47,938 bases of DNA from Gammaproteobacteria bacterium (GCA_030834065.1 JAURFX010000002.1:1-47938); one strand, 5' to 3'. Shown: positions 10,147 to 46,070, numbered from the stretch's first letter. The notes: generated by a model from the sequence alone, not told the origin. Numbers and translations: made by a program.

Positions 10147-10194
10147 TTTAAATGAGAATTACTTGCATTTATAATAAGAATGATTATCATTTAC
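10147..10194 (+). promoter_or_regulatory. candidate sigma70 promoter with overlapping Fur-box-like operator
   Basis: TTTAAA (10147-10152), 17-nt spacer, TATAAT (10170-10175). Immediately downstream is AATGATTATCATT (10179-10191). Its reverse complement AATGATAATCATT equals the central 13 nt of the classical Fur box GATAATGATAATCATTATC. By hand count the full 19-mer 10176-10194 matches at 15/19. Confidence 0.5.
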
Positions 10195-10220
10195 TTATTA
10201 AGAATAAATCTAAAAAAACT

Positions 10221-10754
10221 TTGAAAGTGTTTCAGATAAAGAAAATTTTAATCATATTTGGTTTTTTCCTATTCTCTGGGAATCTTATTTCTCAGGGAAG
10301 ATATATGGAAGTGCAAGAATTTTTGGACTTGGCATTTATTCAACAGCCACAGTTTTCGTCATTATGGGTGGATCAGGAGACCAGAGATACACTTAAGGAT
10401 ATTACTGGTAAAGACTTTAATCAATTACGAGTAAGATATTGGGAATCAGAAGATAAAACTGCTTGGGTTTTACAAGAAGTAGGAAAAGAGGAATTAATTA
10501 CTGTTGGTATCGTGGTTTATAACGGATCAATTCAGGAGGTCCGCGTTTTAGAATTTAAAGAACCTCGGGGCTGGGAAATTAGATACCCATTTTTTACTGA
10601 CCAATATCGTGGCATTAATGCTGATAAATTAATATCAAATGCAGCGAATCCGATTCATGGCATTACTGGCGCCACTTTATCTGTTGAAGCTGTAAATAGG
10701 ATGGCAAAAACTGCACTTATCCTTGATAGGAAGGTTACACTTCCTAATTCATGA
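10221..10754 (+). CDS. exported FMN-binding-domain protein (NqrC/RnfG-type flavinylation motif)
   Basis: The track ORF starts at 10152, but that ATG lies in the predicted promoter. An in-frame TTG at 10221 gives (M)KVFQIKKILIIFGFFLFSGNLISQ, a signal peptide. The C-terminal FMN_bind-like block is ITVGIVVYNGSIQEVRVLEFKE...IHGITGATLSVEAVNRMAK, with the [S/T]GA[S/T] flavinylation motif TGAT. Confidence 0.78.
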   Translation: MKVFQIKKILIIFGFFLFSGNLISQGRYMEVQEFLDLAFIQQPQFSSLWVDQETRDTLKDITGKDFNQLRVRYWESEDKTAWVLQEVGKEELITVGIVVYNGSIQEVRVLEFKEPRGWEIRYPFFTDQYRGINADKLISNAANPIHGITGATLSVEAVNRMAKTALILDRKVTLPNS

Positions 10755-11488
10755 CCCAAAAATTTATTTTTAAAATAAAAAAAATGGCCTACATTTTTCA
10801 TAGATGGATTGGTTTAATCAGTCTAATATTCATATTAAATTTTGCAATAACTGGCATCTTACTTAACCACGCGACTGGTTTGCGGCTCTATGAAAAGAAC
10901 TATAGCGGTCCGCTTGTGAAACTTTTATATCCAAATGGAACCTCTGCCTTTAGGTCATTCGAGTTTGGAGAAAGTTACCTAGACGTTTTGTCCGATAAAG
11001 TATTTTTAAATAATAATGATCTTAATTTAAATTTAACCGCACCTGTAGGGTTTATAAATTTATTTGAACAAGAATTATATATTTTTGCATCTGATGAGAT
11101 TATTTTTATTTTAGATTATGAATTTAATTTAATAGAAAGACTGCCGGTAAGTTTTTTTGGAATTGATAGGATCGATGCTCTGGGGGTCTTAGATGATGCA
11201 TTAATAGTCTCTAATCAAGTAGCTTACGATCTTAATGGTCAAGTATTGATGGATGTGGATTTAGATGAAATCCGCTTTGCCATTGACTCAACTGAAGTCA
11301 GGCAAGATTTATATAGCGCTCAAACGGGTGCTAGCATTAGTCGTTTTAACTTTATTAGCGACCTTCATTCTGGAAGAATATTAGCTAAATTTGGTGTCCT
11401 AATTCAGGACTTATTTGCAGTTTTTCTTATCATTTTGTCAGTCCTTGGGGGTTATCTTTTTTTCTCAAGGTATTCAAGAAAACCTTGA
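10751..11488 (+). CDS. PepSY-associated TM-helix family membrane protein (2 TM, large periplasmic loop)
   Basis: 245 aa. N-terminal FHRWIGLISLIFILNFAITGILLNH and C-terminal LHSGRILAKFGVLIQDLFAVFLIILSVLGGYLFF are the family hallmarks. ATGA overlap with the upstream FMN-binding gene. Confidence 0.75.
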   Translation: MTQKFIFKIKKMAYIFHRWIGLISLIFILNFAITGILLNHATGLRLYEKNYSGPLVKLLYPNGTSAFRSFEFGESYLDVLSDKVFLNNNDLNLNLTAPVGFINLFEQELYIFASDEIIFILDYEFNLIERLPVSFFGIDRIDALGVLDDALIVSNQVAYDLNGQVLMDVDLDEIRFAIDSTEVRQDLYSAQTGASISRFNFISDLHSGRILAKFGVLIQDLFAVFLIILSVLGGYLFFSRYSRKP

Positions 11489-11594: not shown

Positions 11595-11996
11595 ATGAAG
11601 CGAGTGGCTTTCGTATTAGCTGTTTTTGCGTTTTTCACCTTAAATGCTCATCATGGTGCCGGTGTATATGATACAACTGCTGTGATCGATGTAACGGGAA
11701 CAGTTACAGAATTTCAATTTAGAAATCCTCATGTTTTAATTTTTATTGATGCCGAGAACGAGGCAGGGCAATCGGTTAATTGGTCTGGGGAATTAACCAG
11801 TAGAAATAGACTTGCAAGACAAATACAGGAGAATAGACCTCAGTGGACTAATGATATTTTAGAGCCAGGAGATACGATTACCTTAACAGGCAATCCTGCT
11901 GGAAATGGATCACCTTTTTTAAGGCTAATTAGGGTAGAGACTTCCGATGGGACAGTTCTGATTGGTCCTGATCAATCTCCTGCCGAGGAATATTAA
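11595..11996 (+). CDS. exported DUF6152-like small protein
   Basis: 133 aa. Signal peptide ends at ...FFTLNA|HHGAG. The block VTGTVTEFQFRNPHVLIFID ... GDTITLTGNP matches my recollection of the DUF6152 pattern (AHHS...tGtV.ef.w.NPH). Strong SD GGGGGG lies upstream. Confidence 0.7.
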   Translation: MKRVAFVLAVFAFFTLNAHHGAGVYDTTAVIDVTGTVTEFQFRNPHVLIFIDAENEAGQSVNWSGELTSRNRLARQIQENRPQWTNDILEPGDTITLTGNPAGNGSPFLRLIRVETSDGTVLIGPDQSPAEEY

Positions 11997-11997
11997 A

Positions 11998-12765
11998 ATG
12001 AGAAAGTATTTTTTCTTTATTCTAAGCTTTCTTTTAATTGGTTGCGGCCAAAATACCTCTCAAAATATTAATGATGCAGTTGAAACAGTTTCTGTTGATC
12101 CTGCGTTGGAGCACGGAGCTGATTTTTCAGGAGTATGGACACGCGATAACGGTGCTGGTGCTCAAGCTCATAACTCCTCATGGAGCAGGGAAATTCCAGA
12201 TATGACTCCATGGGCACGTGAGCAGTTTGACGTCCATCTTCCTACTTTTGGTGCGCGTGCCGTTGCTGTGGCTGATACTAATGATCCAGTGTATGAGTGC
12301 TATCCACCTGGGACCCCTAGAATTTATCTTCATCCATTTCCCATGGAGATTCTTCAAATGCCTGGAAGAATACTTATGATTTATGAATACGATGGAATTA
12401 CGAGAAATATCTATACTGATGGTAGGGAGCATCGAGATAATATCGGTGTTACCTGGATGGGAGATTCCATAGGATACTGGGATCAGGATGTTCTTGTTGT
12501 AGAAACTAAAAATATGAGAGATGACACGTGGATTGATCGAGAGGGGGTACCCCATAGTGAGGAGATGACAGTTATTGAGCGATTTCAATTAAGAGATGAA
12601 AATTCTTTATGGATAGACATTGAAATTACTGATCCTGTTGCATTAAATACTCCTTGGGTAACCTCACAAGCCTATCAAAAGACAGATTGGACGATTGAGG
12701 AGTTCAAGTGTATGGATAACGTAAATTTTGCCGCATGGGAAGATCAAATCCTAGAGTATAACTAA
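11998..12765 (+). CDS. lipoprotein of unknown function
   Basis: The track ORF begins at 11962, but ATG 11998 has SD GAGGAA and gives MRKYFFFILSFLLIGCGQN (lipobox LIGC). Conserved-looking blocks are CYPPGTPR, EILQMPGRILMIYEYDGITRNIYTDGREH, WMGDSIGYWDQDVLVVET and DTWIDREGVPHS. I recognise no family name. Confidence 0.75.
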   Translation: MRKYFFFILSFLLIGCGQNTSQNINDAVETVSVDPALEHGADFSGVWTRDNGAGAQAHNSSWSREIPDMTPWAREQFDVHLPTFGARAVAVADTNDPVYECYPPGTPRIYLHPFPMEILQMPGRILMIYEYDGITRNIYTDGREHRDNIGVTWMGDSIGYWDQDVLVVETKNMRDDTWIDREGVPHSEEMTVIERFQLRDENSLWIDIEITDPVALNTPWVTSQAYQKTDWTIEEFKCMDNVNFAAWEDQILEYN

Positions 12766-12782
12766 AGAATCAAGGAGAAATT

Positions 12783-13967
12783 ATGATATTTAAATTAAGA
12801 TATTTTTTGATTATTGCTTTTTTCTATTTATTCGGGTGTGGCAATAATGTCTCGGATGATATGAACAATGATGAGTTAAGTACTTCTCCTGCAATGCCAG
12901 GGAGCAATATCCCTATTTTTGATGTTTCAAATATAGCTCGTAAAAGTTTTTACTTTGCAGGTGGTGACTATATAGGCGATCCTCCGGTGATGGGTGGTCA
13001 GATGTATGTTGAAATATGGGAACCGGTCAACCCAACTCAACAATATCCTATAGTTTTATTTCATGGTAATGGACAAACTGGTGTTGACTGGAAACAAACG
13101 CCAGATGGAAGGCCTGGCTGGGCATATTATCTTGTAGAGCAGGGATACACAATTTATATGGTTGATTATCCAGCTAGAGGAAGATCTGCATACATACCTG
13201 GTGGTATTCACGGTGATCTTGGAATTAGAACCGTTGAGCAACTTGAGACCATTTGGACAAATGTAGGGGAAAAAGGTAATTTTCCTCTAGATCAGAATCA
13301 CACTCAATGGCCGGGTACAGGTAAAAGAGGTGACCCTATTTTTGATAACTTTATTAAAACTCAAGTTCAGTTTGCAGGCGAAAGTACAACCTTAGCAAGA
13401 TATGCAGCTATGGAGCTCCTAGATACGATTGGACAGCCTGTGATACTGCTTACTCACTCGCAGGGTGGTGGAGTTGGTTGGGGTGTCGCGGATGGAAGAC
13501 CTGACCTAGTTAGAGGGATTGTAACTGTTGAGCCAGGTGGTCCTCAAATTGGTAATGTAAATACCGCTGAAGTCATCTATTCAGGTAGGCCTGCAAATGC
13601 TTGGGGTCCAGTCGATTATCCATTAACTTATGACCCCCCTGTTACAGATCCATCAGAGATTATTACCTATCTCGAGGCAGAAGCGGACCAGCCTGGCGAG
13701 GTTCCATGCTATTTACAAGAAGAGCCTGCGAGACAGTTAGTTAATATGGCAGACATGAGGGTTTTAGCAATTTCAGCAGACGGTACTTATCACAGGGTAT
13801 TCGATGCGTGCATACCGAAGTGGTTAAATCAAGCCGGTGTGGAGACTGATTTTATTAGGCTTGAAGATGTCGGCATCAGTGGGAATGGTCACATGATGAT
13901 GCTTGAGCTTAATAGTGACGATATTATTGAATTCATTCATGAGTGGATTCAAGAAAACTTAGCCTAA
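12783..13967 (+). CDS. exported alpha/beta-hydrolase, paralog 1 (lipoprotein)
   Basis: 394 aa with lipobox LFGC. Nucleophile elbow LLTHSQGG and C-terminal GNGHMMMLE (probable catalytic His). Roughly 50 percent identical by eye to the 15247-16386 product. Confidence 0.85.
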   Translation: MIFKLRYFLIIAFFYLFGCGNNVSDDMNNDELSTSPAMPGSNIPIFDVSNIARKSFYFAGGDYIGDPPVMGGQMYVEIWEPVNPTQQYPIVLFHGNGQTGVDWKQTPDGRPGWAYYLVEQGYTIYMVDYPARGRSAYIPGGIHGDLGIRTVEQLETIWTNVGEKGNFPLDQNHTQWPGTGKRGDPIFDNFIKTQVQFAGESTTLARYAAMELLDTIGQPVILLTHSQGGGVGWGVADGRPDLVRGIVTVEPGGPQIGNVNTAEVIYSGRPANAWGPVDYPLTYDPPVTDPSEIITYLEAEADQPGEVPCYLQEEPARQLVNMADMRVLAISADGTYHRVFDACIPKWLNQAGVETDFIRLEDVGISGNGHMMMLELNSDDIIEFIHEWIQENLA

Positions 13968-13975
13968 GAGGTTTT

Positions 13976-15244
13976 ATGAGAAATTTAAAGCTATTTAAAA
14001 TTATAATTTTTTCGTTTTTTACGATAATTATTTCTGCTGCATCCTTTGCACAACGCAGGGATTTAAATGATGGTTTTGCAGCGGTCCCAGGCGAAAGGGG
14101 TGGCCAGGAAATGTTTGGTCCCTATGATATTGTTGCTGGCTGGCCTCAGGATATTGCTGATCTCCCTGGTCATGATGCGTGGACATACGGTGCCGGCCAA
14201 AGCGTCTTTGCTGAAAGCCCTGATCGAGTATTTATGCTCTTTAGAGGGGAGCTCCCCAATATCGCCAGACCTGGCACGTTTGTTGTATACGATGGAAATG
14301 GACCAGGCGTTTCATACCCAGTAGCACAAGTGCCCTGGAGAAATGCTTCGGTGGGGCCTAGGTCAAGTTTACCCGGATCTTTAGATGGCGGGGATCAAGA
14401 CAGAGGAACTTATGGTCTTGATCATCGATGGGAACATACTTTAATCGTCGCTAACAGAGATGGTGAGATCATTGAAGAGTGGACTCAATGGGATCACTTA
14501 TTCAGAAGACCGCATTTTGTGACTATTGATCCATTTGATCCAGAGAAGAAAGTATGGATCGTTGATGATTATAGGCATGCAATTTTTGTGTTTTCTAATG
14601 ATGGGAGTGAGCTCTTAAATACTATAGGCGTCCCTAATGAGCGTGGCAATGATGAGTCACATTTTTATAGACCTACTTTTCTAACGTTTACAGAGGATCA
14701 TGTTTTTGTCGCTGATGGTTACATAAATACTCGTGTCGTTAAGCTTGATAAGGACGGAAATTTTGTCATGACATGGGGTCAACCTGGGGAGAGAGGGGGT
14801 AATGAAACCCGACCTGGGTATTTTAATAATGTGCATGGAATTGCAGCAAATCTTGATGAAGGATTAATTTATGTCAACGATAGGGGCAATCGTCGAGTCC
14901 AGATTTTTGATTTCGATGGTAACTATCAAGATGAATGGAGTTTTGGGCCCGCCCCAACTGACATCCACCTTATCTACATGGGTGATGATGGTACGCTTTG
15001 GGCTGCAGATAGGGCCACATCTAAAATTTTAGGCTATAACCCAGATGGCGAATTAATATACTCATGGGGTATTTTTGGTGATTTTCCAGGTGCCTTTTTT
15101 GGTGTCCATGCTATGAGTGTAGACCAAGAGGGAAATTTTTATGTCGCAGAAGTAGGTGGAGGTAGAGTGCAGAAATTTACCCCACGAAATGGCGCTAGAC
15201 AAGAAACATTATTGGCAAGGCCAGTATATTCTGCATGGGAGTAA
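13976..15244 (+). CDS. exported NHL-repeat beta-propeller, peptidyl-alpha-hydroxyglycine amidating lyase (PAL)-like, paralog 1
   Basis: ATG 13976 has SD AAGAGG (track start is 13943). Signal peptide MRNLKLFKIIIFSFFTIIISAASFAQ. NHL-type blades include VADGYINTRVVKLDKDGNFVMTWG and VNDRGNRRVQIFDFDGNY. Invariant His in RRPHF, NVHGIA and GVHAMS. Confidence 0.8.
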   Translation: MRNLKLFKIIIFSFFTIIISAASFAQRRDLNDGFAAVPGERGGQEMFGPYDIVAGWPQDIADLPGHDAWTYGAGQSVFAESPDRVFMLFRGELPNIARPGTFVVYDGNGPGVSYPVAQVPWRNASVGPRSSLPGSLDGGDQDRGTYGLDHRWEHTLIVANRDGEIIEEWTQWDHLFRRPHFVTIDPFDPEKKVWIVDDYRHAIFVFSNDGSELLNTIGVPNERGNDESHFYRPTFLTFTEDHVFVADGYINTRVVKLDKDGNFVMTWGQPGERGGNETRPGYFNNVHGIAANLDEGLIYVNDRGNRRVQIFDFDGNYQDEWSFGPAPTDIHLIYMGDDGTLWAADRATSKILGYNPDGELIYSWGIFGDFPGAFFGVHAMSVDQEGNFYVAEVGGGRVQKFTPRNGARQETLLARPVYSAWE

Positions 15245-15246
15245 TT

Positions 15247-16386
15247 ATGAGAAAAATAATATCAGTATTTCTATTCTTTTTTCCTATGACCTATTTTGCA
15301 CAGGTGACAGATCGGATTGATATGATGGACATGAGCAATGTCGCTTATCAGGGATTTTTCTATGCAGGTGGCGAATATGTGAGAGAGGGCGACCAAGTCA
15401 CCATGGGTGGCGCGATGTATGTAGAGGTCATGGTACCGAAAGAAATTAGACATCCATATCCTGTGGTATTTTTCCATGGTGCGGGTCAAACGGCAGTCGA
15501 TTGGCTACAAACGCCTGATGGTAGGCCTGGTTGGGCTTATAATTTTCTCGATGCTGGATATGTTGTCTACATGGAGGACTATCCTGGAAGAGGTCGGTCT
15601 CAGTATGTTCCTGATTATGATGGACAATTAAATATTCGTAATGCGCCACAATTGGAGGAGATTTTTACTGCCTCAGCAGCCGTTTCTGAAGAAAAACAAA
15701 TTTTTCCTCAAGCTCCTTTGCATACCCAGTGGCCTGGTACAGGAAGAATGGGCGACCCAGTCTTTGATTTCTTTAATAAAACTCAGGTACAGTTTATGGC
15801 AGGGCAGGACGGTCCAGCCGTAGCGGCAAATATTGCTCTTCTCGATATGATTGGTACGCCCGTTATATTGCTGACGCATTCTCAAGGCGGTGCGTTCGGA
15901 TGGCCTGTCGCACAAGCAAGACCTGATCTCGTTCATGCAATCGTTACTGTGGAACCTGCTGCACCTCCGATTCGAGGAGTTGATACTACCAACGTACAGG
16001 TGTTAGATCGAGGCGGTTTAAGCTATGGTATCAGTAGTTACCCAATTGAGTATGAACCGCCAATTTCTGGGCCTTCCGATCTCAATGTGGTTTTAGAGGA
16101 TCAGGCACAAGGCGAAAATCTTGTCCCTTGTTATCGTCAAGTTGAGCCTGCCAGACAGCTCGCTAACCTAACCCATATTCCAGTTCTTTTTTTAAATGGT
16201 GAGGGAAGTTATCATCGAATCTTTGATCATTGTTTGGCCGATTGGCTTAACCAGGCCGGTGTTCAAACTGAATATATTAGGATGGAAGAAGTAGGCTTGC
16301 GCGGTAATGGTCACATGATGATGCTAGAAGAAAATAGCAGAGAAATTGCTGATTATATAATTGGCTGGCTAAATGATTTAGGATAA
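15247..16386 (+). CDS. exported alpha/beta-hydrolase, paralog 2
   Basis: ATG 15247 (track start is 15235). Signal peptide MRKIISVFLFFFPMTYFAQ. Shares QTPDGRPGWAY, VILLTHSQGG and GNGHMMMLE with paralog 1. Confidence 0.85.
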   Translation: MRKIISVFLFFFPMTYFAQVTDRIDMMDMSNVAYQGFFYAGGEYVREGDQVTMGGAMYVEVMVPKEIRHPYPVVFFHGAGQTAVDWLQTPDGRPGWAYNFLDAGYVVYMEDYPGRGRSQYVPDYDGQLNIRNAPQLEEIFTASAAVSEEKQIFPQAPLHTQWPGTGRMGDPVFDFFNKTQVQFMAGQDGPAVAANIALLDMIGTPVILLTHSQGGAFGWPVAQARPDLVHAIVTVEPAAPPIRGVDTTNVQVLDRGGLSYGISSYPIEYEPPISGPSDLNVVLEDQAQGENLVPCYRQVEPARQLANLTHIPVLFLNGEGSYHRIFDHCLADWLNQAGVQTEYIRMEEVGLRGNGHMMMLEENSREIADYIIGWLNDLG

Positions 16387-16416
16387 AGTTAATATTCATA
16401 ATAGGGGGAAATTGTT

Positions 16417-17748
16417 ATGAAACAAATAGGAATTGGACTTGCGGTAGGTGTGGTTGCTGCCTATTTATATTTTAGTTTTAATGCAACACAACAAATTATT
16501 GAGGTTGAAGTTATCCAAGAGCAGTCCTATGCTGCAATTCCAGGCACGATTGGCGGGCAGGAGTATTGGGGTGCATATGATGTGGATCCAAGTTGGCCAA
16601 TAGACATAGCTGAGCAAATTGAAGGTCATGAAGGCTGGACTTGGGGTGCCGGACAGTCAGTTTTTGCTGAGAGCCCAGACCGAGTTTTTGTATTAGTTAG
16701 GGGTGAAATCCCAAGCTTTGAAAGGCCAAGAAATGTCGACCTAAGAGAGTCAACGGGAATACCAGCAAATTTTCCAGTGAGTAACTTCGTGCCTTGGAGA
16801 AATACCACGAATACCTCTTTGCCTGTTGGGGTTCATGATACTGATGATAATTGCCCTGAAACAAGCGAACGAGGGGTTTGCGGTGTAGATGTTCGTTGGG
16901 AGCACGCGATACTTGTTTTTAACCGCGAGGGTGAGTTGATTGAATCTTGGACCCAATGGGATTATCTTCTAAGGAGACCACACGCGATTTACATCAATCC
17001 ATATGATCCAGAGAAACATGTTTGGATAGTTGATGACTATAGACATGCCATCTTTAAGTTTACCAATGATGGCTCAGAGCTAGTGCAAACTATTGGGGAG
17101 CCCAATGTGTGGGTCCAGTCAGTTGATCCTGAAGATGATCTCGAGCATTTTTATAGACCCACTTTTATGGCATTTAGACCTGACGGTGGTTTTTATGTTA
17201 GTGATGGCTATTTAAATACTCGTGTTGTCAGATTTAATTCGGATGGAACCCCTCATAGTGCTTGGGGGCAGCCCGGTATCAATGGAGTCCGAGAGGGCCG
17301 CCCTGAAGATAGACCCGGTTATATGTTCAATGTACATGGTTTAGCCGTTGATCATGTCACTGGTCATATCTTTGTAAATGATAGAAACAATAATCGCGTG
17401 CAAGTTTTTGACGAAGATGGAAATTATGTTCGTGAATGGTCAGTAGGTGATCTTGGAAGATCAAATATTCACTTATTTTGGATGGGTGAAGACAGGGCTT
17501 TATGGGCATTTGATCAAAATACTCAGAAAATGCTGAAATACAGTAATGATGGTGAGTTTCTCTATCAATTCGGTGGAATGGGTGGAAGAGGTTTTGGCTT
17601 CTTTGGTGTGCATGGCATTAATGTTGACCAAGAAGGTAACTTATACGTAGCTGAAGTAGGTAATGGTGGTGCCCAAAAATTCATACCACGTGAAGGCGCA
17701 AACCCAGACCTAATGTTAGCCAGACCAGTATTTAGCGCTTGGGAGTAA
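16417..17748 (+). CDS. membrane-anchored or exported PAL-like NHL beta-propeller, paralog 2
   Basis: 443 aa with an N-terminal hydrophobic anchor. Shares WGAGQSVFAESPDRVF, RRPHA, VWIVDDYRHAIFKF, VSDGYLNTRVVRFNSDG, NVHGLA, VNDRNNNRVQVFDEDGNY, GVHGIN and a C-terminal PVFSAWE. Confidence 0.8.
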   Translation: MKQIGIGLAVGVVAAYLYFSFNATQQIIEVEVIQEQSYAAIPGTIGGQEYWGAYDVDPSWPIDIAEQIEGHEGWTWGAGQSVFAESPDRVFVLVRGEIPSFERPRNVDLRESTGIPANFPVSNFVPWRNTTNTSLPVGVHDTDDNCPETSERGVCGVDVRWEHAILVFNREGELIESWTQWDYLLRRPHAIYINPYDPEKHVWIVDDYRHAIFKFTNDGSELVQTIGEPNVWVQSVDPEDDLEHFYRPTFMAFRPDGGFYVSDGYLNTRVVRFNSDGTPHSAWGQPGINGVREGRPEDRPGYMFNVHGLAVDHVTGHIFVNDRNNNRVQVFDEDGNYVREWSVGDLGRSNIHLFWMGEDRALWAFDQNTQKMLKYSNDGEFLYQFGGMGGRGFGFFGVHGINVDQEGNLYVAEVGNGGAQKFIPREGANPDLMLARPVFSAWE

Positions 17749-17751
17749 TTT

Positions 17752-19086
17752 ATGGGTAAGCAAATTTGGATAGCAATTATCTTAGTAGCTGCAGCTGCAG
17801 TATTTTTTGTCTCAAATAACGAGAATACGATTGCGCAAACTGAAACGGAAAACGCCGCATTTAGTATTTCAGCTATTCCTGGGCAAATCGGAGGACAAGA
17901 TATCTTAGGAGGGTATGAAGTTGATGCTGACTGGCCTAGAGAGATCAATAATAAACCTGGTGACGAGGATTGGACATGGGGCGCTGGACAAAGCATCTAT
18001 GCCGAATCCGAGGATAGAGTTTATGCATTGATGCGAGGTCAGTTGCCAAATATTGAAAGACCCAGAACTCAATATCTGAGAGATATTGCTCCAAGCTTAT
18101 CATTTCCAATCGGACGACTTCCATGGAGAGATGCAACAGCAGCCAGCCTTCCGGCCAACGGTGGGACTGGAGCTCTAGCTGAAGAAGGAATTTCAGCTTG
18201 GTTAGCAAGAGGCCTTGAGATTGGTGTCGACGCACGATGGGATTACTGTGTTGTAGTCTTTGATGCGGATGGCAACATGATCGAGGAATGGACCGATGAG
18301 CAAGGAAATTGCACCATGCCAAATGGCGAGCAACTTCAAAGACCACACTTTGTCGGTATGGATCCTTATGATGCCGATAAGCATGTTTGGATTCTCGATG
18401 ATCATAAGCATACTATCTATAAGCTAACAAATGATGGCTCAGAAATAGTCATGCAGCTCGGGACCTATGGTGAACTAGGCACAGATGAAAATCACTTTAA
18501 CCGACCCTCAATGATGGATTGGATGCCTGAAGAAGAGGGCGGTGCAAGTATTTTTGTTGCAGATGGATACAATGGTACACGAGTTGTGAAATTTGACTCA
18601 GAGGGTAATTTTATTACTCAGTGGGGAGAGCCTGGTGCGCGAGGCGGTGAGACACGTCCCGGATATTGGCATAATGTTCATGGTATAGCAATTGATCCAG
18701 TCGGCAGAAGAGTCTTTGTCAATGATAGGACCAATAATCGCGTTCAAGTTTTTGATGAAGATGGCAATTACCTTTACGAATGGAGTTTCGGACCGGAGCC
18801 AGCTGATATACATGACTTTATGATAACTGCTGATGGCCATTTATGGGCAGCAGATCGTGGTACTAATAAAATGCTTAAATATGATCTTGAGGGAAGATTC
18901 CTATACTCATGGGGTACTTGGGGAGACTTCCCAGGTGGGTTCTGGGGTGTTCATGGTATCAGTTCAGATCCTCAGGGAAATTTTTATGTAGCAGAAGTTG
19001 ATAATGGAGGCTTCCAAAAGTACACCCCTAGAGCAGGTGTAAATCCAGAAACTTTAGTAGGCGCTCCTGTGAGATCAGCCTGGTAA
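17752..19086 (+). CDS. membrane-anchored or exported PAL-like NHL beta-propeller, paralog 3
   Basis: 444 aa with the same block set: WGAGQSIYAESEDRVY, QRPHF, VADGYNGTRVVKFDSEGNFITQWG, NVHGIA, VNDRTNNRVQVFDEDGNY, GVHGIS. C-terminus is PVRSAW. Confidence 0.8.
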   Translation: MGKQIWIAIILVAAAAVFFVSNNENTIAQTETENAAFSISAIPGQIGGQDILGGYEVDADWPREINNKPGDEDWTWGAGQSIYAESEDRVYALMRGQLPNIERPRTQYLRDIAPSLSFPIGRLPWRDATAASLPANGGTGALAEEGISAWLARGLEIGVDARWDYCVVVFDADGNMIEEWTDEQGNCTMPNGEQLQRPHFVGMDPYDADKHVWILDDHKHTIYKLTNDGSEIVMQLGTYGELGTDENHFNRPSMMDWMPEEEGGASIFVADGYNGTRVVKFDSEGNFITQWGEPGARGGETRPGYWHNVHGIAIDPVGRRVFVNDRTNNRVQVFDEDGNYLYEWSFGPEPADIHDFMITADGHLWAADRGTNKMLKYDLEGRFLYSWGTWGDFPGGFWGVHGISSDPQGNFYVAEVDNGGFQKYTPRAGVNPETLVGAPVRSAW

Positions 19087-19106
19087 TTTAAATTGCTCAA
19101 ATAAAT

Positions 19107-19135
19107 AAAAAAGCCGCTTTTTTTGCGGCTTTTTT
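19107..19135 (+). terminator. Rho-independent terminator closing the hydrolase/propeller operon
   Basis: AAAAAAGCCGC (19107-19117), 7-nt T loop, GCGGCTTTTTT (19125-19135). GC stem followed by a T-tract. The A-tract/T-tract symmetry would allow bidirectional function. Confidence 0.85.
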
Positions 19136-19163
19136 AATTTATAACACTGATAAAATATTGAGT

Positions 19164-19424
19164 ATGAAATATCTTCGCATTCTAAGTGCCGTAATTGGAT
19201 CCAGCATCATTACCATTGCGCTCATATTATTTATGAATGATCTTATTGGAGGAAATTTTATAAGATCTCCAATTCGATATTTACCTGTATTTGATGTCAT
19301 CATGCTGGGCAATCAAGATCAGGAAAGGTTACAAAGACCTCCATCTGCTGAATCAAGACCAACCAACCCACAGCTTGATTATGACCCCCTGTTTGATACC
19401 GCAGAAGATGCTCAGGTAGAATGA
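19164..19424 (+). CDS. small single-TM protein of unknown function
   Basis: Track ORF runs from TTG 19158; the ATG is at 19164. TM segment ILSAVIGSSIITIALILFM, then a Pro/acidic tail. The stop overlaps the next gene start (ATGA at 19421-19424). Confidence 0.45.
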   Translation: MKYLRILSAVIGSSIITIALILFMNDLIGGNFIRSPIRYLPVFDVIMLGNQDQERLQRPPSAESRPTNPQLDYDPLFDTAEDAQVE

Positions 19425-21781
19425 AGCCCACCTATAGTATCAAGAAGGACTTTTCGCTTGATACGATGGATATTGTCATAGCTGTATTACTAGGCGTGTG
19501 TCAGGCAGTAGTAGAAATATTCGGCTTATTAGGATTTTTAGAGAGAACTGTATGGGCAACTGGCCCTGTTGGTTTTGCAATATATGCTTTTTATAACGGT
19601 ACTACATGGATATTAATTTTTCTTGGTGCCTATTTAAGAAAACGGGCAATGGTACCTGTTTTGGCTGTTGCAGTCACTGCTTTGGTTAGATGGTTTTCTG
19701 GGGATCCTGATGGACCGATATTATTATTTTATGCTTTATTTCCAGTTTCATTTGGCGCATTAATTTTTCCATTGCTTAGATGGAGGGGTGGCTCTTTATT
19801 GTTTGTACTCTCTGTCGCTGTAACTTCAGTTGCTAATCAAGTGGCTTTATTTGTTGGTCAGGGAGGATTTCAATTAGCTGATGGAACATTTTGGGCATTG
19901 GTATCAATGGGCATAGCTTCAGTTGGAGGCACTTTGTGGGGTTTTACGACTTGGTACCTAGGAAGAGGACTTGAAGTCGCAGGTGTGAATTCACTTGATC
20001 AGCCACCATCACTAAATGTTGAAACGAGCAAAAGCAGTGAAATTAAAATTAAAGAGAAAAAAGAAGATCAGGTGATTGAGTTTAATGATTACTCTTTCTG
20101 GTTTGATAGAAAAAATAAAAAACAATCAGATGCTCAATTAAACTCGGTTAGTCTGACTATTAAGAAAAAATCAATTGTATTGTTGGTAGGTGAGAGCGGT
20201 GCTGGAAAAAGCACCTTGGCCTTAAATATTCTTGGTATCTACCCTGATTATTATGGTGGAGCCTACGAAGGGATGATTTGGATAGAAAATGATCTTGATC
20301 AACTGCAATCGAGAGACTCAATTCCAAAAGATAAAAGATTTCGAAATGTAAATATTGTCTTTCAGAATCCTGAAGATCAAACCGTATGCCTAACTGTAGA
20401 GGAAGAAGTTAGCTTTGCTTTAGAGAATTATGGCTTAGAGAAAAGCGAGATTATTATCAGGGTAAAGGATGCCCTACTATGGGTTGGCCTTTTAGGGAAA
20501 GAGGAGGTTAGCGTTAATGAGCTCTCGACTGGAGAAAAGCAAAGGTTAGTTTTGGCATCTATGGTTGCATTAAGGCCAAAGGTTCTCATTCTCGATGAAC
20601 CCACCTCTAATCTTGATCCACAAGGCAAAGATGAAATCATCAAGTTGGTGAATAGACTTCGCGATGAGCTGGATATGACCATTGTATTAATCGAGCATGA
20701 AGTCGATAAAGTCTTTCCAATCGTCGATGAAATTTTTCATATTGAACATAACAAAGTTTTAGGACCGTTTACACCAGAATCATTTCTAAGCGAGATTGGT
20801 CTTAGAGCTAGAGATGAATTAGGTTTATGGATTCCGCAGGCTAGCGAAATTTCACTCGACCTTAAAAAGAGAGGTATGGATATAGGAGATTCAATAGATG
20901 TTACTTATGAATCTTTGTTCCAAAAACTACAAGCTCAATTAAGCCAAAAGTTATCTAGGCATATAGATCAATTAGAAACTAACCAATTATCTGAAGTATT
21001 AAAATTAAGCAATGTCAACACGGGTGATTTATTCAACTCTATTAATTTGTCATTCAAATCAGGAGAGATGGTTGCCATTGCTGGAGCAAATGGTTCAGGT
21101 AAATCAATTTTAGGATCAATAATTGCTGGTATCTATCATAATTACTCAGGCGAGGTGTTCATACACGATGAAAATATTAGAAATCTGAACCTTGAGGAAA
21201 TCACAAATACAATCAGTTATATATTTCAAATACCTGAAAAGCAGTTTGTTAGGAATACAGTTTTTAATGAAATTCAGCATGGTATTCGTGACAAAAACAT
21301 AGATGAAAGTGCAATAAATAAAAAAGTAAAAGAGGTGCTTGAACTCGTAAATCTTTGGAGTAGAAGAGATGCGAGTCCTTATATTCTATCGCATGGTCAA
21401 AAAAGAAGACTATCGGTTGCATCCATGATTATCTCAAAACCAAAAGTTCTTATACTAGATGAACCAACATTTGGACAAGATTTTAGACAGGCAAAAAATT
21501 TGATGTTATTGCTGAAAGATCTTGCAGCCTCAGGAACGCTTATTATTTTTATGACAAATGATATGAAAATAGTCAGTGAATATGCAAATAGAGTGATTGT
21601 CCTCAAAGAAAAAGTCATTTTTGATGGAAATCCAAAGGTGTTTTTCAATGAGGAAAAATTATTAGAGGAGGCTCATCTAGAATCACCATGTATTGCTAGG
21701 CTAAATAACTATTTTAATTTGTCTGACTACTCAAATTATGATGTAGTCCTAGAAAGTATCATCAAGGAGATAAATGGATAA
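19421..21781 (+). CDS. ECF transporter fusion: YkoE-like S component + tandem EcfA/EcfA' ATPases (YkoD-like)
   Basis: 786 aa. The N-terminal ~190 aa has about 6 TM segments, and YLRKRAMVPVLAVAVTALVRWFSGDPDGP resembles B. subtilis YkoE as I recall it. ABC module 1: GESGAGKST, LSTGEKQR, LILDEPTSNLD. ABC module 2: GANGSGKS, LSHGQKRR, LILDEPTFGQD. Confidence 0.85.
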   Translation: MKPTYSIKKDFSLDTMDIVIAVLLGVCQAVVEIFGLLGFLERTVWATGPVGFAIYAFYNGTTWILIFLGAYLRKRAMVPVLAVAVTALVRWFSGDPDGPILLFYALFPVSFGALIFPLLRWRGGSLLFVLSVAVTSVANQVALFVGQGGFQLADGTFWALVSMGIASVGGTLWGFTTWYLGRGLEVAGVNSLDQPPSLNVETSKSSEIKIKEKKEDQVIEFNDYSFWFDRKNKKQSDAQLNSVSLTIKKKSIVLLVGESGAGKSTLALNILGIYPDYYGGAYEGMIWIENDLDQLQSRDSIPKDKRFRNVNIVFQNPEDQTVCLTVEEEVSFALENYGLEKSEIIIRVKDALLWVGLLGKEEVSVNELSTGEKQRLVLASMVALRPKVLILDEPTSNLDPQGKDEIIKLVNRLRDELDMTIVLIEHEVDKVFPIVDEIFHIEHNKVLGPFTPESFLSEIGLRARDELGLWIPQASEISLDLKKRGMDIGDSIDVTYESLFQKLQAQLSQKLSRHIDQLETNQLSEVLKLSNVNTGDLFNSINLSFKSGEMVAIAGANGSGKSILGSIIAGIYHNYSGEVFIHDENIRNLNLEEITNTISYIFQIPEKQFVRNTVFNEIQHGIRDKNIDESAINKKVKEVLELVNLWSRRDASPYILSHGQKRRLSVASMIISKPKVLILDEPTFGQDFRQAKNLMLLLKDLAASGTLIIFMTNDMKIVSEYANRVIVLKEKVIFDGNPKVFFNEEKLLEEAHLESPCIARLNNYFNLSDYSNYDVVLESIIKEING

Positions 21782-22589
21782 TTTTAAAATTACCTATCAG
21801 CAAGGCGATTCATTTATCCATCGGTTAAGTCCTTATACTAAGTTGATGATTATTTTAAGTATTTCTTTTGTTGCGATATTTAATACAAGCCTCAGTGTTG
21901 CTGTTAGTTTATTCCTTTTTGCATTTTGCTCAGCAATATTTTTAACTAATATCCCTTACAAGCTGTACTGGAATTTTGGAAAAATTATTCTACCCTTTGT
22001 TTTTATTATCTCTTCCGTGTTTCCCTTTTTTTATGGTGGTCAAGTTACTGCTGGCTCTGACTTAATTGCAATCAGTACACCGTTTAAGGATTTAACATGG
22101 TCAGCATTAGGTTTTGGTGCTTTATTAGGACTAAGATTTCTTACTTTAGCGATGGCAGGGCTTACTTTTGCATTTACCACTCATCCAAGCGATCTTGTTC
22201 AAAATTTCACTGAACGTGGTTGGAATTATAGATATGTGCATGCTCCAGTTCTAGGTTTAATACTGTTTCCAAGATTTATTAAGCTTGCATTAGAGATTTT
22301 ATTAACTCAGAAGGTTCGAAATCTTGGTTTTGAGCTTAAAGGTTTTAGAAAAAAGATACATCGATTCAGGCACCTGGTATTTGCAATGCTGGTTTTAGGT
22401 CTAAGGAATGGGCAGGTTCAAGCCATGGCGTTAGATGTCAGAGGTTATGCCTCAAACAAGAAGCGTACATTTGTAAGAAAAAGTCCAGGAAATAGATTTA
22501 CAGAAACTATTTCATTAATCATTTTACTCTTATCGATAATTTATTTAATTAGTCAATTTAATCCCCAATTCATGCAATGGAATATTTAA
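21774..22589 (+). CDS. ECF transporter T component (CbiQ/EcfT family, YkoC-like)
   Basis: 271-aa polytopic membrane protein with an ALDVRGY (Ala-Arg-Gly type) coupling motif. Overlaps the ATPase fusion by 8 nt. Confidence 0.82.
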   Translation: MDNFKITYQQGDSFIHRLSPYTKLMIILSISFVAIFNTSLSVAVSLFLFAFCSAIFLTNIPYKLYWNFGKIILPFVFIISSVFPFFYGGQVTAGSDLIAISTPFKDLTWSALGFGALLGLRFLTLAMAGLTFAFTTHPSDLVQNFTERGWNYRYVHAPVLGLILFPRFIKLALEILLTQKVRNLGFELKGFRKKIHRFRHLVFAMLVLGLRNGQVQAMALDVRGYASNKKRTFVRKSPGNRFTETISLIILLLSIIYLISQFNPQFMQWNI

Positions 22590-46061: not shown

Positions 46062-46070
46062 TTTCTCACA

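What the first reader, a model, noticed from the sequence alone, without database searches (positions are those of the whole stretch)
12783..19086. Alternating exported alpha/beta-hydrolase and PAL-like NHL-propeller paralogs (ABH-NHL-ABH-NHL-NHL) in one tight operon
Five same-strand genes are separated by only 2-30 nt. Each product carries a lipobox, signal peptide or N-terminal anchor.

The two hydrolases share QTPDGRPGWAY, VILLTHSQGG (nucleophile elbow) and GNGHMMMLE.

The three ~440-aa propellers share WGAGQS.(F/Y)AES.DRV, (R/Q)RPH, VWI.DD(Y/H)(R/K)H.I(F/Y), DGY.N(T/G)TRVV(K/R)(L/F), NVHG(I/L)A, VNDR.N.RVQ.FD.DGNY, GVH(G/A) and an extreme C-terminal PV.SAW(E).

The block VADGYINTRVVKLDKDGNFVMTWG is strikingly close to the segment around the catalytic Tyr of animal peptidyl-alpha-hydroxyglycine alpha-amidating lyase, which I recall as VSDGYCNSRIVQFSPSGKFVTQWG. 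Three invariant His (RPH, NVHG, GVHG) could correspond to its Zn ligands.

A repeated hydrolase + N-C lyase pairing in the periplasm suggests a two-step cleavage pathway for an amide- or ester-linked substrate, diversified by duplication. I know of no characterised bacterial system with this architecture.
Basis: partly seen in the sequence, partly recalled or inferred. Interest (0 to 1): 0.78.

Follow-up and report, generated by a model that had tools for sequence, protein, structure and literature searches.

The report
Esterase plus PAL-like lyase operon
A marine bacterium carries a conserved operon of exported enzymes that pairs two esterases with three bacterial look-alikes of the animal hormone-amidating lyase PAL, offering a concrete handle on what bacterial PAL homologues do in nature, which is still unknown.

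Summary
Five + strand genes at 12783-19086 encode two alpha/beta-hydrolases (51% identical) and three NHL propellers (50-53% identical), and all have export signals.

The hydrolases belong to the esterase-713/SulE group and keep its Ser-Glu-His triad.

The propellers are full-length homologues of the PAL catalytic core: hhalign probability 99.9%, and 3FVZ is the top Foldseek hit. All six PAL active-site residues align and are invariant: the three Zn-binding His, the catalytic Tyr, and both Arg.

The hydrolase-propeller adjacency was present in 31 of 31 close gammaproteobacterial loci. It recurs in soil metagenome contigs, where the two hydrolases are fused into one protein.

The unit is larger than the finding. 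Two uncharacterised families sit just upstream and co-occur with both enzyme families across phyla: DUF6152 (OB fold, invariant N-terminal His-His) and an unnamed lipoprotein family.

PAL-like annotation of such bacterial proteins already exists, and bacterial PAL activity has been shown. The operon, however, appears undescribed.

The most likely function is periplasmic catabolism: ester hydrolysis followed by N-C(OH) cleavage, yielding an amide and glyoxylate. Substrate and step order are inferred.

The parts
10152..10754 (+). FMN_bind-domain exported protein; possible first gene of the transcription unit
   Evidence: Pfam PF04205, E 2.7e-7. It overlaps the next gene by 4 nt. An FMN_bind and/or PepSY_TM homologue lies upstream of the cluster in L006, L008, L012 and L019 (both genes detected only in L012 and L019). 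Membership of the functional unit is not shown.
10751..11488 (+). PepSY_TM membrane protein; possible electron-transfer partner
   Evidence: Pfam PF03929/PF16357, E about 2e-8. Conserved upstream position. A 106-nt gap separates it from DUF6152.
11595..11996 (+). DUF6152 small periplasmic protein with an OB-like fold; the mature N-terminus is His-His
   Evidence: Pfam PF19649, E 9e-18. A18|H19-H20 and P45-H46 are invariant in 32 sequences. AF2 model pLDDT 82.5, with weak OB-fold matches. Co-occurs with NHL and ABH relatives across phyla.
11998..12765 (+). Lipoprotein (lipobox LIG|C) of a large unnamed family, here called 'unk267'
   Evidence: No Pfam, NCBIfam or PDB match. 8653 cluster representatives at E<=1e-3. 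Paired with DUF6152 in many loci and fused to it in P0156 and L003:12548-13534(-).
12783..13967 (+). ABH1: lipoprotein alpha/beta-hydrolase of the esterase-713/SulE group; triad S226-E250-H370
   Evidence: Pfam Abhydrolase_6/1. PDB hits: 1qlw 2e-21, 4q34 6e-21, SulE 2e-19. Triad residues align with SulE S209/E232/H333. S226 and E250 are invariant and H370 is conserved in at least 90% of the 14 family members.
13976..15244 (+). NHL1: exported PAL-like six-bladed propeller. In GTG-start numbering: R101, H191, Y260, H298, R314, H389
   Evidence: phmmer vs 3fvz 1.3e-18. hhalign vs rat PAL Prob 99.4 and vs a PAL family profile Prob 99.93, E 3.5e-36. Foldseek top hit 3fvz, E 2.5e-19, TMt 0.70.
15247..16386 (+). 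ABH2: exported paralogue of ABH1 (51% identity) with the same motifs
   Evidence: An ABH2-type gene follows the NHL1-type gene in every locus listed that contains one, and ABH and NHL genes are directly adjacent in all 31 close loci. Soil contigs carry ABH2-like and ABH1-like halves fused in one protein.
16417..17748 (+). NHL2: PAL-like propeller paralogue with an N-terminal anchor
   Evidence: Pfam NHL. All catalytic positions are invariant in A1, which includes this sequence. This orthogroup is found only in close relatives.
17752..19086 (+). NHL3: PAL-like propeller paralogue with an N-terminal anchor
   Evidence: Pfam NHL/DUF5128. Catalytic positions invariant. NHL3-type orthologues are conserved either downstream of ABH2 or upstream of DUF6152 in other genomes.
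19106..19136 (.). Palindromic 12-bp GC-rich hairpin flanked by A and T runs: probable bidirectional terminator ending the operon
   Evidence: It lies 20 nt after the NHL3 stop codon.

Best explanation
The five genes are the 3' part of a conserved operon of exported enzymes, running from 11595 (or 10152) to 19086 and ending at a hairpin at 19106-19136.

ABH1 and ABH2 are Ser-Glu-His carboxylesterases of the esterase-713/SulE/BDI_1566 group. They probably work as a pair.

NHL1-3 are Zn-dependent lyases of the PAL type. They keep the three Zn-binding His, the catalytic Tyr, the Arg that tunes it, and the Arg that clamps the substrate's alpha-carboxylate.

Most likely mechanism: in the periplasm the esterases hydrolyse an ester (or amide) on an imported or ambient organic-nitrogen compound, exposing a free carboxylate. 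The PAL-like lyases then cleave the N-C(OH) bond of the resulting N-acyl-alpha-hydroxyglycine-type carbinolamide, giving a primary amide plus glyoxylate. The paralogues would cover different acyl groups.

DUF6152 and the unnamed lipoprotein belong to the same functional network, in an unknown role.

Shown: family identities, conservation of the catalytic residues, export signals, and conserved gene linkage.
Inferred: the substrate class, the order of steps, the ABH heterodimer, and a catabolic rather than biosynthetic purpose.
For: PAL homology:
- phmmer vs 3fvz gives 1.3e-18.
- hhalign vs the verified rat PAL core gives Prob 99.4.
- The profile-profile comparison gives Prob 99.93, E 3.5e-36 over 311 columns, including blade 1.
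- Aligned pairs (NHL1=PAL): R101=R533, H191=H585, Y260=Y654, H298=H690, R314=R706, H389=H786. All are invariant in 26 family members, including NHL2 and NHL3.
- The AF2 model (pLDDT 80.6) has 3FVZ as its top PDB match.

Bacterial PAL activity is documented for other homologues.

ABH: the best PDB relatives are esterase 713, BDI_1566 and SulE. S226/E250/H370 align with the mutagenesis-verified SulE triad.

Linkage:
- ABH is directly adjacent on the same strand in 31 of 31 NHL-seeded loci at 60% identity or more.
- The order ABH1-NHL1-ABH2 is fixed, with distinct orthogroups.
- Of 79 ABH-seeded metagenome loci, 14 carry an NHL gene (11 adjacent) and 27 carry DUF6152 or unk267, despite short contigs.
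- Tandem ABH2-like + ABH1-like fusions, several followed directly by an NHL gene, occur in soil contigs.

All products carry export signals. A terminator follows NHL3.
Against: - No substrate is known, and nothing in the window or the related loci resembles the PHM hydroxylase that makes alpha-hydroxyglycine in animals.
- PAL's Ca-ligand Asp787 is Ala/Gly here, and Met784 is Gly.
- A conserved insertion of about 55 aa (NHL1 residues 105-160), absent from PAL, is modelled with pLDDT below 50. It could reshape the active site.
- In the more distant NHL relatives (50-60% identity, mostly Acidobacteriota) only 5 of 49 loci have an ABH within 10 kb, so the pairing is not universal to the family.
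- Known esterase-713/SulE substrates are xenobiotic methyl or ethyl esters and give no clue to the natural substrate.
Confidence: 0.6

Rival explanations
1. An oxidative pathway. DUF6152 (N-terminal His-His) together with the unnamed lipoprotein forms a new periplasmic metallo-oxidase. It receives electrons from FMN_bind-PepSY_TM and generates the carbinolamide, acting as a non-homologous analogue of PHM. The PAL-like lyases cleave the carbinolamide and the ABHs process the products.
For: - A|HH and NPH are invariant in DUF6152, so the mature protein starts with His, as in histidine-brace copper proteins (my own knowledge).
- DUF6152/unk267 are linked to NHL and ABH relatives across phyla, and fused to each other in some proteins.
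- An FMN_bind and/or PepSY_TM homologue lies upstream in L006, L008, L012 and L019, with both detected only in L012 and L019.
- The DUF6152 pair sits next to MtrCAB-like cytochromes in L169 and near a cytochrome c in L005.
Against: - The DUF6152 model is an OB-like barrel with only weak PDB matches (E about 3e-3). None is to a cupredoxin, LPMO or CopC fold.
- No metal binding has been shown.
- Proximity of H19/H20/H46 could not be checked.
- FMN_bind/PepSY_TM linkage is seen only in close relatives and may simply reflect synteny.
Confidence: 0.12
2. The NHL proteins are not N-C lyases. They are metal-dependent lactonases or esterases of the SGL/gluconolactonase/DFPase kind, as some automatic annotations ('sugar lactone lactonase YvrE') suggest. 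The whole operon would then hydrolyse esters or lactones.
For: - Sub-threshold to borderline Pfam SGL hits (26-31 bits against a cutoff of 26.3).
- JGI names such as YvrE on several homologues.
- DFPase, Drp35 and gluconolactonase appear among weaker PDB and Foldseek matches.
- The neighbouring genes are esterases.
Against: - PAL is the best structural match and the best single-domain sequence match.
- The complete PAL-specific set (three His, Tyr and two Arg) is invariant.
- As far as I know, SGL-type lactonases do not use a three-His Zn site with a Tyr base (own knowledge, not tested here).
Confidence: 0.12
3. A biosynthetic or maturation role: C-terminal amidation or trimming of an exported peptide, or periplasmic assembly of a pigment or natural product, as suggested by partial similarity to the scytonemin protein ScyF.
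For: - In animals PAL matures peptides.
- NCBIfam ScyF hits at E 1e-22 to 6e-25, though only 80-88 bits against a cutoff of 350.
Against: - No precursor peptide, PHM-like, NRPS/PKS or RiPP genes occur in the window or the related loci.
- The flanking genes are housekeeping genes.
- The cluster carries two or three lyase paralogues plus hydrolases, and the carriers are marine Gammaproteobacteria and soil Acidobacteriota MAGs; I read these lineages as organic-matter degraders from my own knowledge.
- The ScyF score is far below its cutoff.
Confidence: 0.08
4. The adjacency has no functional meaning: unrelated exported enzymes that happen to be syntenic in one lineage.
For: Many of the 31 loci come from related marine Gammaproteobacteria.
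Against: - The linkage recurs in a different form (a fused ABH followed by an NHL gene) in soil metagenome contigs.
- The same four families recombine in many arrangements.
- Intergenic gaps are only 2-30 nt.
Confidence: 0.03

Closest known systems
[quoted passage not shown]
   Same: - Six-bladed NHL propeller.
- About 27% identity over 311 aligned profile columns.
- The Zn ligands H585/H690/H786, Tyr654, Arg706 and Arg533 all align with invariant residues.
- Best structural match.
   Different: - Stand-alone exported bacterial proteins in two or three paralogues, not fused to or accompanied by PHM.
- About 100 extra N-terminal residues, including a conserved 55-aa insertion.
- The Ca-site Asp787 and Met784 are not conserved.
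- An invariant extreme C-terminal P..xAW(E) motif.
- Encoded next to esterases.
Bacterial PALs with demonstrated activity (Exiguobacterium sp. ExiPAL; US patent 9,096,843, as cited in PMC10900485 and PMC9155641)
   Same: Prokaryotic PAL homologues with the same three-His, Tyr and Arg set (ExiPAL H95/H210/H309, Y178, R225, per PMC10900485). Their natural function is stated to be unclear.
   Different: The ExiPAL residue numbering implies a compact protein the size of the rat PAL core, without the N-terminal insertion. No operon context with esterases or DUF6152 is described.
Esterase 713 (Alcaligenes, 1QLW), SulE (Hansschlegelia, 7Y0L and others) and BDI_1566 (4Q34) group of alpha/beta-hydrolases
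   Same: - Best PDB relatives of ABH1 (E 2e-21 to 2e-19).
- The same Ser-Glu-His triad positions.
- A non-canonical nucleophile motif (T-H-S-Q-G rather than G-X-S-X-G).
- A conserved C-terminal GN(G/S)H motif.
   Different: - The known members act on synthetic methyl or ethyl esters and their natural role is unknown.
- Here there are two diverged paralogues (51% identical), fused in tandem in soil relatives and genetically tied to PAL-like lyases.
ScyF (scytonemin cluster NHL protein, NCBIfam NF035926)
   Same: An exported NHL propeller with partial similarity (E about 1e-23).
   Different: Scores of 80-88 bits against a cutoff of 350, covering only about 130-180 residues. There is no scytonemin gene context.

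Membership tests
PAL-type lyase (EC 4.3.2.5 fold and active site; rat PALcc 3FVZ) | Six-bladed NHL beta-propeller homologous over its full length | tested here: met
   hhalign A1 vs the PAL family profile: Prob 99.93, E 3.5e-36, 311 columns, NHL1 52-412 vs PALcc 1-316. The AF2 model's top Foldseek hit is 3fvz, E 2.5e-19, TMt 0.70, 360 columns.
PAL-type lyase (EC 4.3.2.5 fold and active site; rat PALcc 3FVZ) | Three His Zn ligands (H585, H690, H786) | tested here: met
   They align with H191, H298 and H389 of NHL1. All three are invariant in 26 family sequences, including NHL2 and NHL3. Numbering was fixed by matching PALcc to 5wm0 residues 498-820. The ligand identities are from my knowledge of Chufan et al. 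2009 and are consistent with the ExiPAL description in PMC10900485.
PAL-type lyase (EC 4.3.2.5 fold and active site; rat PALcc 3FVZ) | Catalytic Tyr654 and its partner Arg706 | tested here: met
   Y260 (DGY) and R314 (NDR) align with them and are invariant.
PAL-type lyase (EC 4.3.2.5 fold and active site; rat PALcc 3FVZ) | Arg533, which binds the substrate's alpha-carboxylate | tested here: met
   Sequence-to-profile alignment of the N-terminus alone failed. The profile-profile alignment places invariant R101 (LFRGE) on invariant PAL R36, which is R533 (FHRGD). No 3D superposition was possible.
PAL-type lyase (EC 4.3.2.5 fold and active site; rat PALcc 3FVZ) | Structural Ca2+ site that includes the Asp787 side chain | tested here: not met
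   The position after H389 is Ala in NHL1 and Gly in NHL2 and NHL3. The other two ligands are backbone carbonyls and cannot be judged.
PAL-type lyase (EC 4.3.2.5 fold and active site; rat PALcc 3FVZ) | Lyase activity on peptidyl- or N-acyl-alpha-hydroxyglycine, giving an amide plus glyoxylate | not testable with these tools
   Needs an enzyme assay. Activity is documented only for other bacterial homologues.
Esterase-713 / SulE / BDI_1566 alpha/beta-hydrolase group | Alpha/beta-hydrolase fold, with these proteins as the closest solved relatives | tested here: met
   Pfam Abhydrolase_6/1 above cutoff. PDB phmmer: 1qlw 2.3e-21, 4q34 5.8e-21, SulE entries about 2e-19.
Esterase-713 / SulE / BDI_1566 alpha/beta-hydrolase group | Ser-Glu-His triad (SulE S209/E232/H333) with a non-G-X-S-X-G nucleophile motif | tested here: met
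   ABH1 S226, E250 and H370 align with SulE S209, E232 and H333 in the alignments. The roles of the SulE residues come from PMC10356948. S226 and E250 are invariant and H370 is conserved in at least 90% of A3. The motif is T-H-S-Q-G-G.
Esterase-713 / SulE / BDI_1566 alpha/beta-hydrolase group | Dimer in which a lid loop of one subunit covers the other subunit's active site | not testable with these tools
   Indirect evidence only: tandem ABH2-like + ABH1-like fusions of 730-810 aa, both halves with THSQGG, in soil contigs suggest that the two paralogues act together.
SGL / gluconolactonase-type propeller hydrolases (Pfam PF08450) | Match to the family model above the curated cutoff | tested here: inconclusive
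   NHL1 scores 31.0 bits, above the cutoff of 26.3, but with no single stretch passing. NHL2 (25.9) and NHL3 (23.5) fall below it. PAL matches are far stronger.
ScyF (NCBIfam NF035926) | Score at or above the equivalog cutoff of 350 bits | tested here: not met
   80-88 bits.

The most novel reading that the evidence does not exclude
The operon is a bacterial, periplasmic and largely non-homologous counterpart of the animal PHM-PAL pathway, used for catabolism.
- DUF6152 (an OB-fold protein whose mature N-terminus is an invariant His-His) and the unnamed lipoprotein form a new metallo-oxidase.
- It is supplied with electrons by FMN_bind-PepSY_TM and hydroxylates the carbon next to an amide nitrogen.
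- The PAL-like lyases cleave the resulting carbinolamide.
- The ABH1/ABH2 heterodimer finishes the job.

Together these would form a route for oxidative cleavage of amide-type organic nitrogen in sea water and soil.
Probability: 0.1. Interest if true: 0.85.

Novelty: new variant of a known kind. Interest (0 to 1): 0.55.

Why it matters
Bacterial PAL homologues are numerous: more than 3200 protein clusters were found here. They are used in biotechnology, yet their natural role is described in the literature as unclear.

This operon ties them genetically to a specific esterase family and to two uncharacterised exported families. The link appears in marine Gammaproteobacteria and, in rearranged or fused form, in soil metagenome contigs. 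That gives defined partner proteins and testable substrates.

If the system cleaves carbinolamide or N-acyl-hydroxyglycine-type compounds, releasing glyoxylate and amides, it would be a previously unrecognised route for using organic nitrogen.

Two of the partner families also deserve attention in their own right: the unnamed lipoprotein family (thousands of members, no Pfam model) and DUF6152 with its invariant N-terminal His-His.

Tried and rejected
1. PDB searches with only the N-terminal (residues 40-165) or C-terminal (327-433) part of NHL1 gave nothing, or only blade-to-blade cross-matches. They were useless for locating H786 and R533.
2. Local hhalign of the N-terminal profile against the single PAL sequence was insignificant. 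This was solved only by building a PAL family profile.
3. The idea that DUF6152 is a cupredoxin- or LPMO-like histidine-brace fold is not supported. The model is OB-like, with weak matches to LysRS and SSB OB domains.
4. Pfam, NCBIfam and PDB (single-sequence and profile) searches for the unnamed lipoprotein gave no hit.
5. Horizontal transfer as the cause of the GC bump (0.43-0.45 against 0.33-0.37) is rejected. The excess lies in codon positions 1-2, and GC3 is only 0.31-0.34 against 0.22-0.33 elsewhere.
6. The ECF-type transporter downstream (19158-22589) is not part of the unit. A strong hairpin separates it from NHL3, and it is adjacent only in close relatives.
7. No tRNA or Rfam element occurs in the window.
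8. Literature searches for the operon, for DUF6152 and for the roles of bacterial PAL found no description. The methylguanidine lyase MdgL is explicitly non-homologous to PAL.

Full report
OBSERVATION

One search confirms five + strand ORFs at 12783-19086 in the order ABH-NHL-ABH-NHL-NHL. With the likely ATG starts (NHL1 at 13976 behind an AGAGG site, ABH2 at 15247) the intergenic gaps are 8, 2, 30 and 3 nt.

ABH1/ABH2 are 51% identical and the NHL paralogues 50-53%.

By inspection, ABH1 has a lipobox (LFG|C), NHL1 and ABH2 have signal peptides, and NHL2 and NHL3 have N-terminal hydrophobic anchors. An independent MAG contig (L008, 98% identity) shows the same gene order.

WHAT THE PROPELLERS ARE

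Pfam gives NHL repeats for all three. The best single-domain PDB sequence match of NHL1 is the rat PAL catalytic core, 3fvz, at E 1.3e-18.

I verified the rat PALcc sequence against the PDB: it is identical to 3fvz_A residues 7-329 and to 5wm0 residues 498-820, which fixes the numbering. I then aligned a 26-member family profile (A1) to it.
- Against the single PAL sequence: Prob 99.4, E 2e-21.
- Against a 20-member animal PAL profile: Prob 99.93, E 3.5e-36 over 311 columns, covering NHL1 52-412 and PALcc 1-316.

In these alignments the pairs (NHL1=PAL) are R101=R533, H191=H585, Y260=Y654, H298=H690, R314=R706 and H389=H786. All six are invariant in A1, which includes NHL2 and NHL3. R533, H585, Y654, H690, R706 and H786 are also invariant in the PAL profile.

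An AlphaFold2 model of NHL1 (pLDDT 80.6, pTM 0.79) has 3FVZ as its top Foldseek hit in the PDB (E 2.5e-19, TMt 0.70, 360 columns). It ranks ahead of the RNA-binding NHL domains of Thin and TRIM71.

Differences from PAL:
- Asp787 (Ca ligand) is Ala or Gly, and Met784 is Gly.
- There is a conserved insertion of about 55 residues (105-160), modelled at low confidence.
- The extreme C-terminus carries an invariant P..xAW.

It is not new as an annotation. JGI names many homologues 'peptidylamidoglycolate lyase'. Bacterial PAL activity is documented for Exiguobacterium PAL and in a patent, with the natural function called unclear.

WHAT THE HYDROLASES ARE

Pfam gives Abhydrolase_6/1. The closest solved relatives are esterase 713 (1QLW), BDI_1566 (4Q34) and SulE (the SulE entries were identified through PMC10356948).

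In the alignments ABH1 S226, E250 and H370 fall on SulE S209, E232 and H333, the mutagenesis-verified triad. S226 and E250 are invariant and H370 is conserved in at least 90% of the 14 family members. As in that group, the nucleophile motif is non-canonical (T-H-S-Q-G-G).

IS THE PAIRING CONSERVED?

A genome scan seeded with the NHL profile returned 80 loci. I called ORFs in them and searched these with the window proteins.
- All 31 loci with 60% identity or more have an ABH directly adjacent on the same strand. These are marine Gammaproteobacteria, including Rariloculaceae, Arenicellaceae and Porticoccaceae, plus a few MAGs with other labels.
- The order is fixed: ABH1-type, NHL1-type, ABH2-type. 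NHL1-ABH2 is the minimal core. An NHL3-type gene lies either downstream of ABH2 or upstream of DUF6152. Each paralogue has its own orthologues. The duplications are therefore old and maintained.
- Among the 49 more distant loci (50-60% identity, mostly Acidobacteriota) only 5 have an ABH within 10 kb, but 29 have DUF6152 and/or the unnamed lipoprotein.

The reciprocal scan seeded with the ABH profile in metagenomes gave 79 loci, many on short contigs. Of these, 14 carry an NHL gene (11 adjacent) and 27 carry DUF6152 or the lipoprotein.

Many soil ABH relatives are tandem fusions of 730-810 aa. In most of them the N-terminal half is ABH2-like and the C-terminal half ABH1-like, and most keep THSQGG in both halves. 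Several are followed directly by an NHL gene (L097, L099, L112, L114, L117, L133). [quoted passage not shown] This is inference.

THE UNIT IS LARGER THAN THE FINDING

Immediately upstream on the same strand are DUF6152 (11595-11996; PF19649) and a lipoprotein with no Pfam, NCBIfam or PDB relatives (11998-12765).

The lipoprotein family is large: 8653 representatives at E<=1e-3. It is fused to DUF6152 in some proteins (P0156, L003).

DUF6152 has an invariant Ala|His-His at the signal-peptide cleavage site and an invariant Pro-His. Its model is OB-like. DUF6152-seeded contexts again show ABH and NHL neighbours. One locus places the pair next to MtrCAB-like cytochromes.

FMN_bind and PepSY_TM genes (10152-11488) precede the cluster here; an FMN_bind and/or PepSY_TM homologue also lies upstream in L006, L008, L012 and L019, with both genes detected only in L012 and L019. 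A strong palindromic hairpin at 19106-19136 ends the unit after NHL3. The ECF-type transporter beyond it is probably separate.

The flanking genes are housekeeping genes: nnr, tsaE, amiC, miaA, hflXKC and purA upstream, and rlmB-like, rpsF, rplI and dnaB downstream. The GC bump over the cluster sits in codon positions 1-2, not in GC3, so it reflects amino-acid composition rather than recent transfer.

MECHANISM

Shown: two families of exported enzymes with intact catalytic machinery, genetically linked across phyla.

Inferred: because the carboxylate-clamping Arg, the Zn site and the Tyr base are all retained, the lyases most likely act on N-substituted alpha-hydroxy-acid carbinolamides (N-acyl-alpha-hydroxyglycine type), releasing a primary amide and glyoxylate. 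Known members of the esterase group convert methyl or ethyl esters to free carboxylates. A sensible order is therefore de-esterification followed by N-C cleavage. The opposite order, in which the hydrolase attacks the product amide, is not excluded.

The multiple paralogues, the export signals, the absence of biosynthetic genes, and carrier lineages that I take from my own knowledge to be organic-matter degraders all argue for catabolism. No hydroxylase that could generate the carbinolamide is evident. That is the main gap. It is also the basis of the more novel reading, in which DUF6152 and the lipoprotein supply that step.

RIVALS

I considered a lactonase-type function, a peptide or pigment maturation role, and meaningless synteny. 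All are less well supported; see the structured fields.

VERDICT

The PAL-like interpretation is supported at residue level. The adjacency is conserved, and the pathway is plausible but untested.

The proteins are new members of known families. The conserved esterase + PAL-like + DUF6152 + lipoprotein association appears undescribed.

Interest is moderate at 0.55: this is not a new kind of enzyme, but it is a well-defined, widely distributed and experimentally tractable lead on the unknown natural role of bacterial PAL homologues.

Noticed in passing
window 11595-11996: DUF6152: the signal-peptide cleavage site Ala|His-His and a later Asn-Pro-His are invariant or nearly so in 32 sequences, so the mature protein starts with His-His. 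The AF2 model is OB-like. This may be a metal site, but nothing was proven.
   Followed up: partly
window 11998-12765: A lipoprotein of a very large family (8653 50%-identity cluster representatives at E<=1e-3) with no Pfam, NCBIfam or PDB relative. It has two invariant Cys and conserved WMG.S.G.WEGDTLVV and PHS...ER motifs. It is sometimes fused to DUF6152 or duplicated in tandem.
   Followed up: partly
L079:5538-7907, L086:2172-4490, L099:2-2404, L114:3268-5700 and others: Soil metagenome and Acidobacteriota relatives encode tandem fused hydrolases. In most, the N-terminal half is ABH2-like and the C-terminal half ABH1-like, and most keep THSQGG in both halves. They are often followed by an NHL or DUF6152 gene.
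   Followed up: partly
window 10152-11488: An FMN_bind-domain protein and a PepSY_TM membrane protein overlap by 4 nt directly upstream of the cluster. FMN_bind and/or PepSY_TM homologues lie upstream in L006, L008, L012 and L019 (both genes only in L012 and L019). This could be an electron-delivery pair.
   Followed up: partly
window 19158-22589: An unusual ECF-type transporter. An 88-aa membrane protein overlaps by 4 nt a 786-aa protein that has an N-terminal membrane domain of about 200 aa fused to two ABC ATPase domains. A CbiQ/EcfT gene follows. Homologues of the 88-aa protein recur a few kb downstream of the cluster in about ten other loci.
   Followed up: no
window 44484-47938: An FG-GAP_2 repeat lipoprotein (525 aa) is followed immediately by an open frame of at least 620 aa that runs off the window end. 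By its N-terminal sequence it looks like a molybdopterin (xanthine dehydrogenase/aldehyde oxidase family) subunit; this was not checked with a tool. In L001 and L005, FG-GAP_2 proteins sit directly after a DUF6152 gene.
   Followed up: no
L169:2514-9118: A DUF6152 + unk267-like pair lies directly downstream of an MtrC/OmcA-like, MtrA-like and MtrB-like set (decahaem cytochromes plus porin). In L005 a cytochrome c gene sits next to the NHL gene.
   Followed up: no
window 12000-19100: GC is 0.41-0.45 over the cluster against 0.33-0.39 around it. The excess is in codon positions 1 and 2, while GC3 is only slightly raised, so it reflects protein composition rather than foreign DNA.
   Followed up: yes
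window 14255-14420 (NHL1 residues about 105-160) and the C-termini of NHL1-3: The NHL family has a conserved insertion of about 55 residues that is absent from PAL and modelled with pLDDT below 50. It also has an invariant extreme C-terminal P..xAW(E). The function of both is unknown.
   Followed up: no
L001:4328-5782, L012:4550-6097, L019:2575-4104: A conserved protein of about 500 aa (starting ...LLAHHPLDGRPSYTPMPH...), with no Pfam hit on record for the L001 copy (the only one looked up), sits just upstream of the NHL3-type gene in several relatives. It is not present in the window.
   Followed up: no
L010, L011, L014, L022: Near-identical ABH-NHL-ABH operons occur in MAGs labelled Rhodospirillaceae and Dehalococcoidia. 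This points to either binning errors or lateral transfer of the cluster.
   Followed up: no
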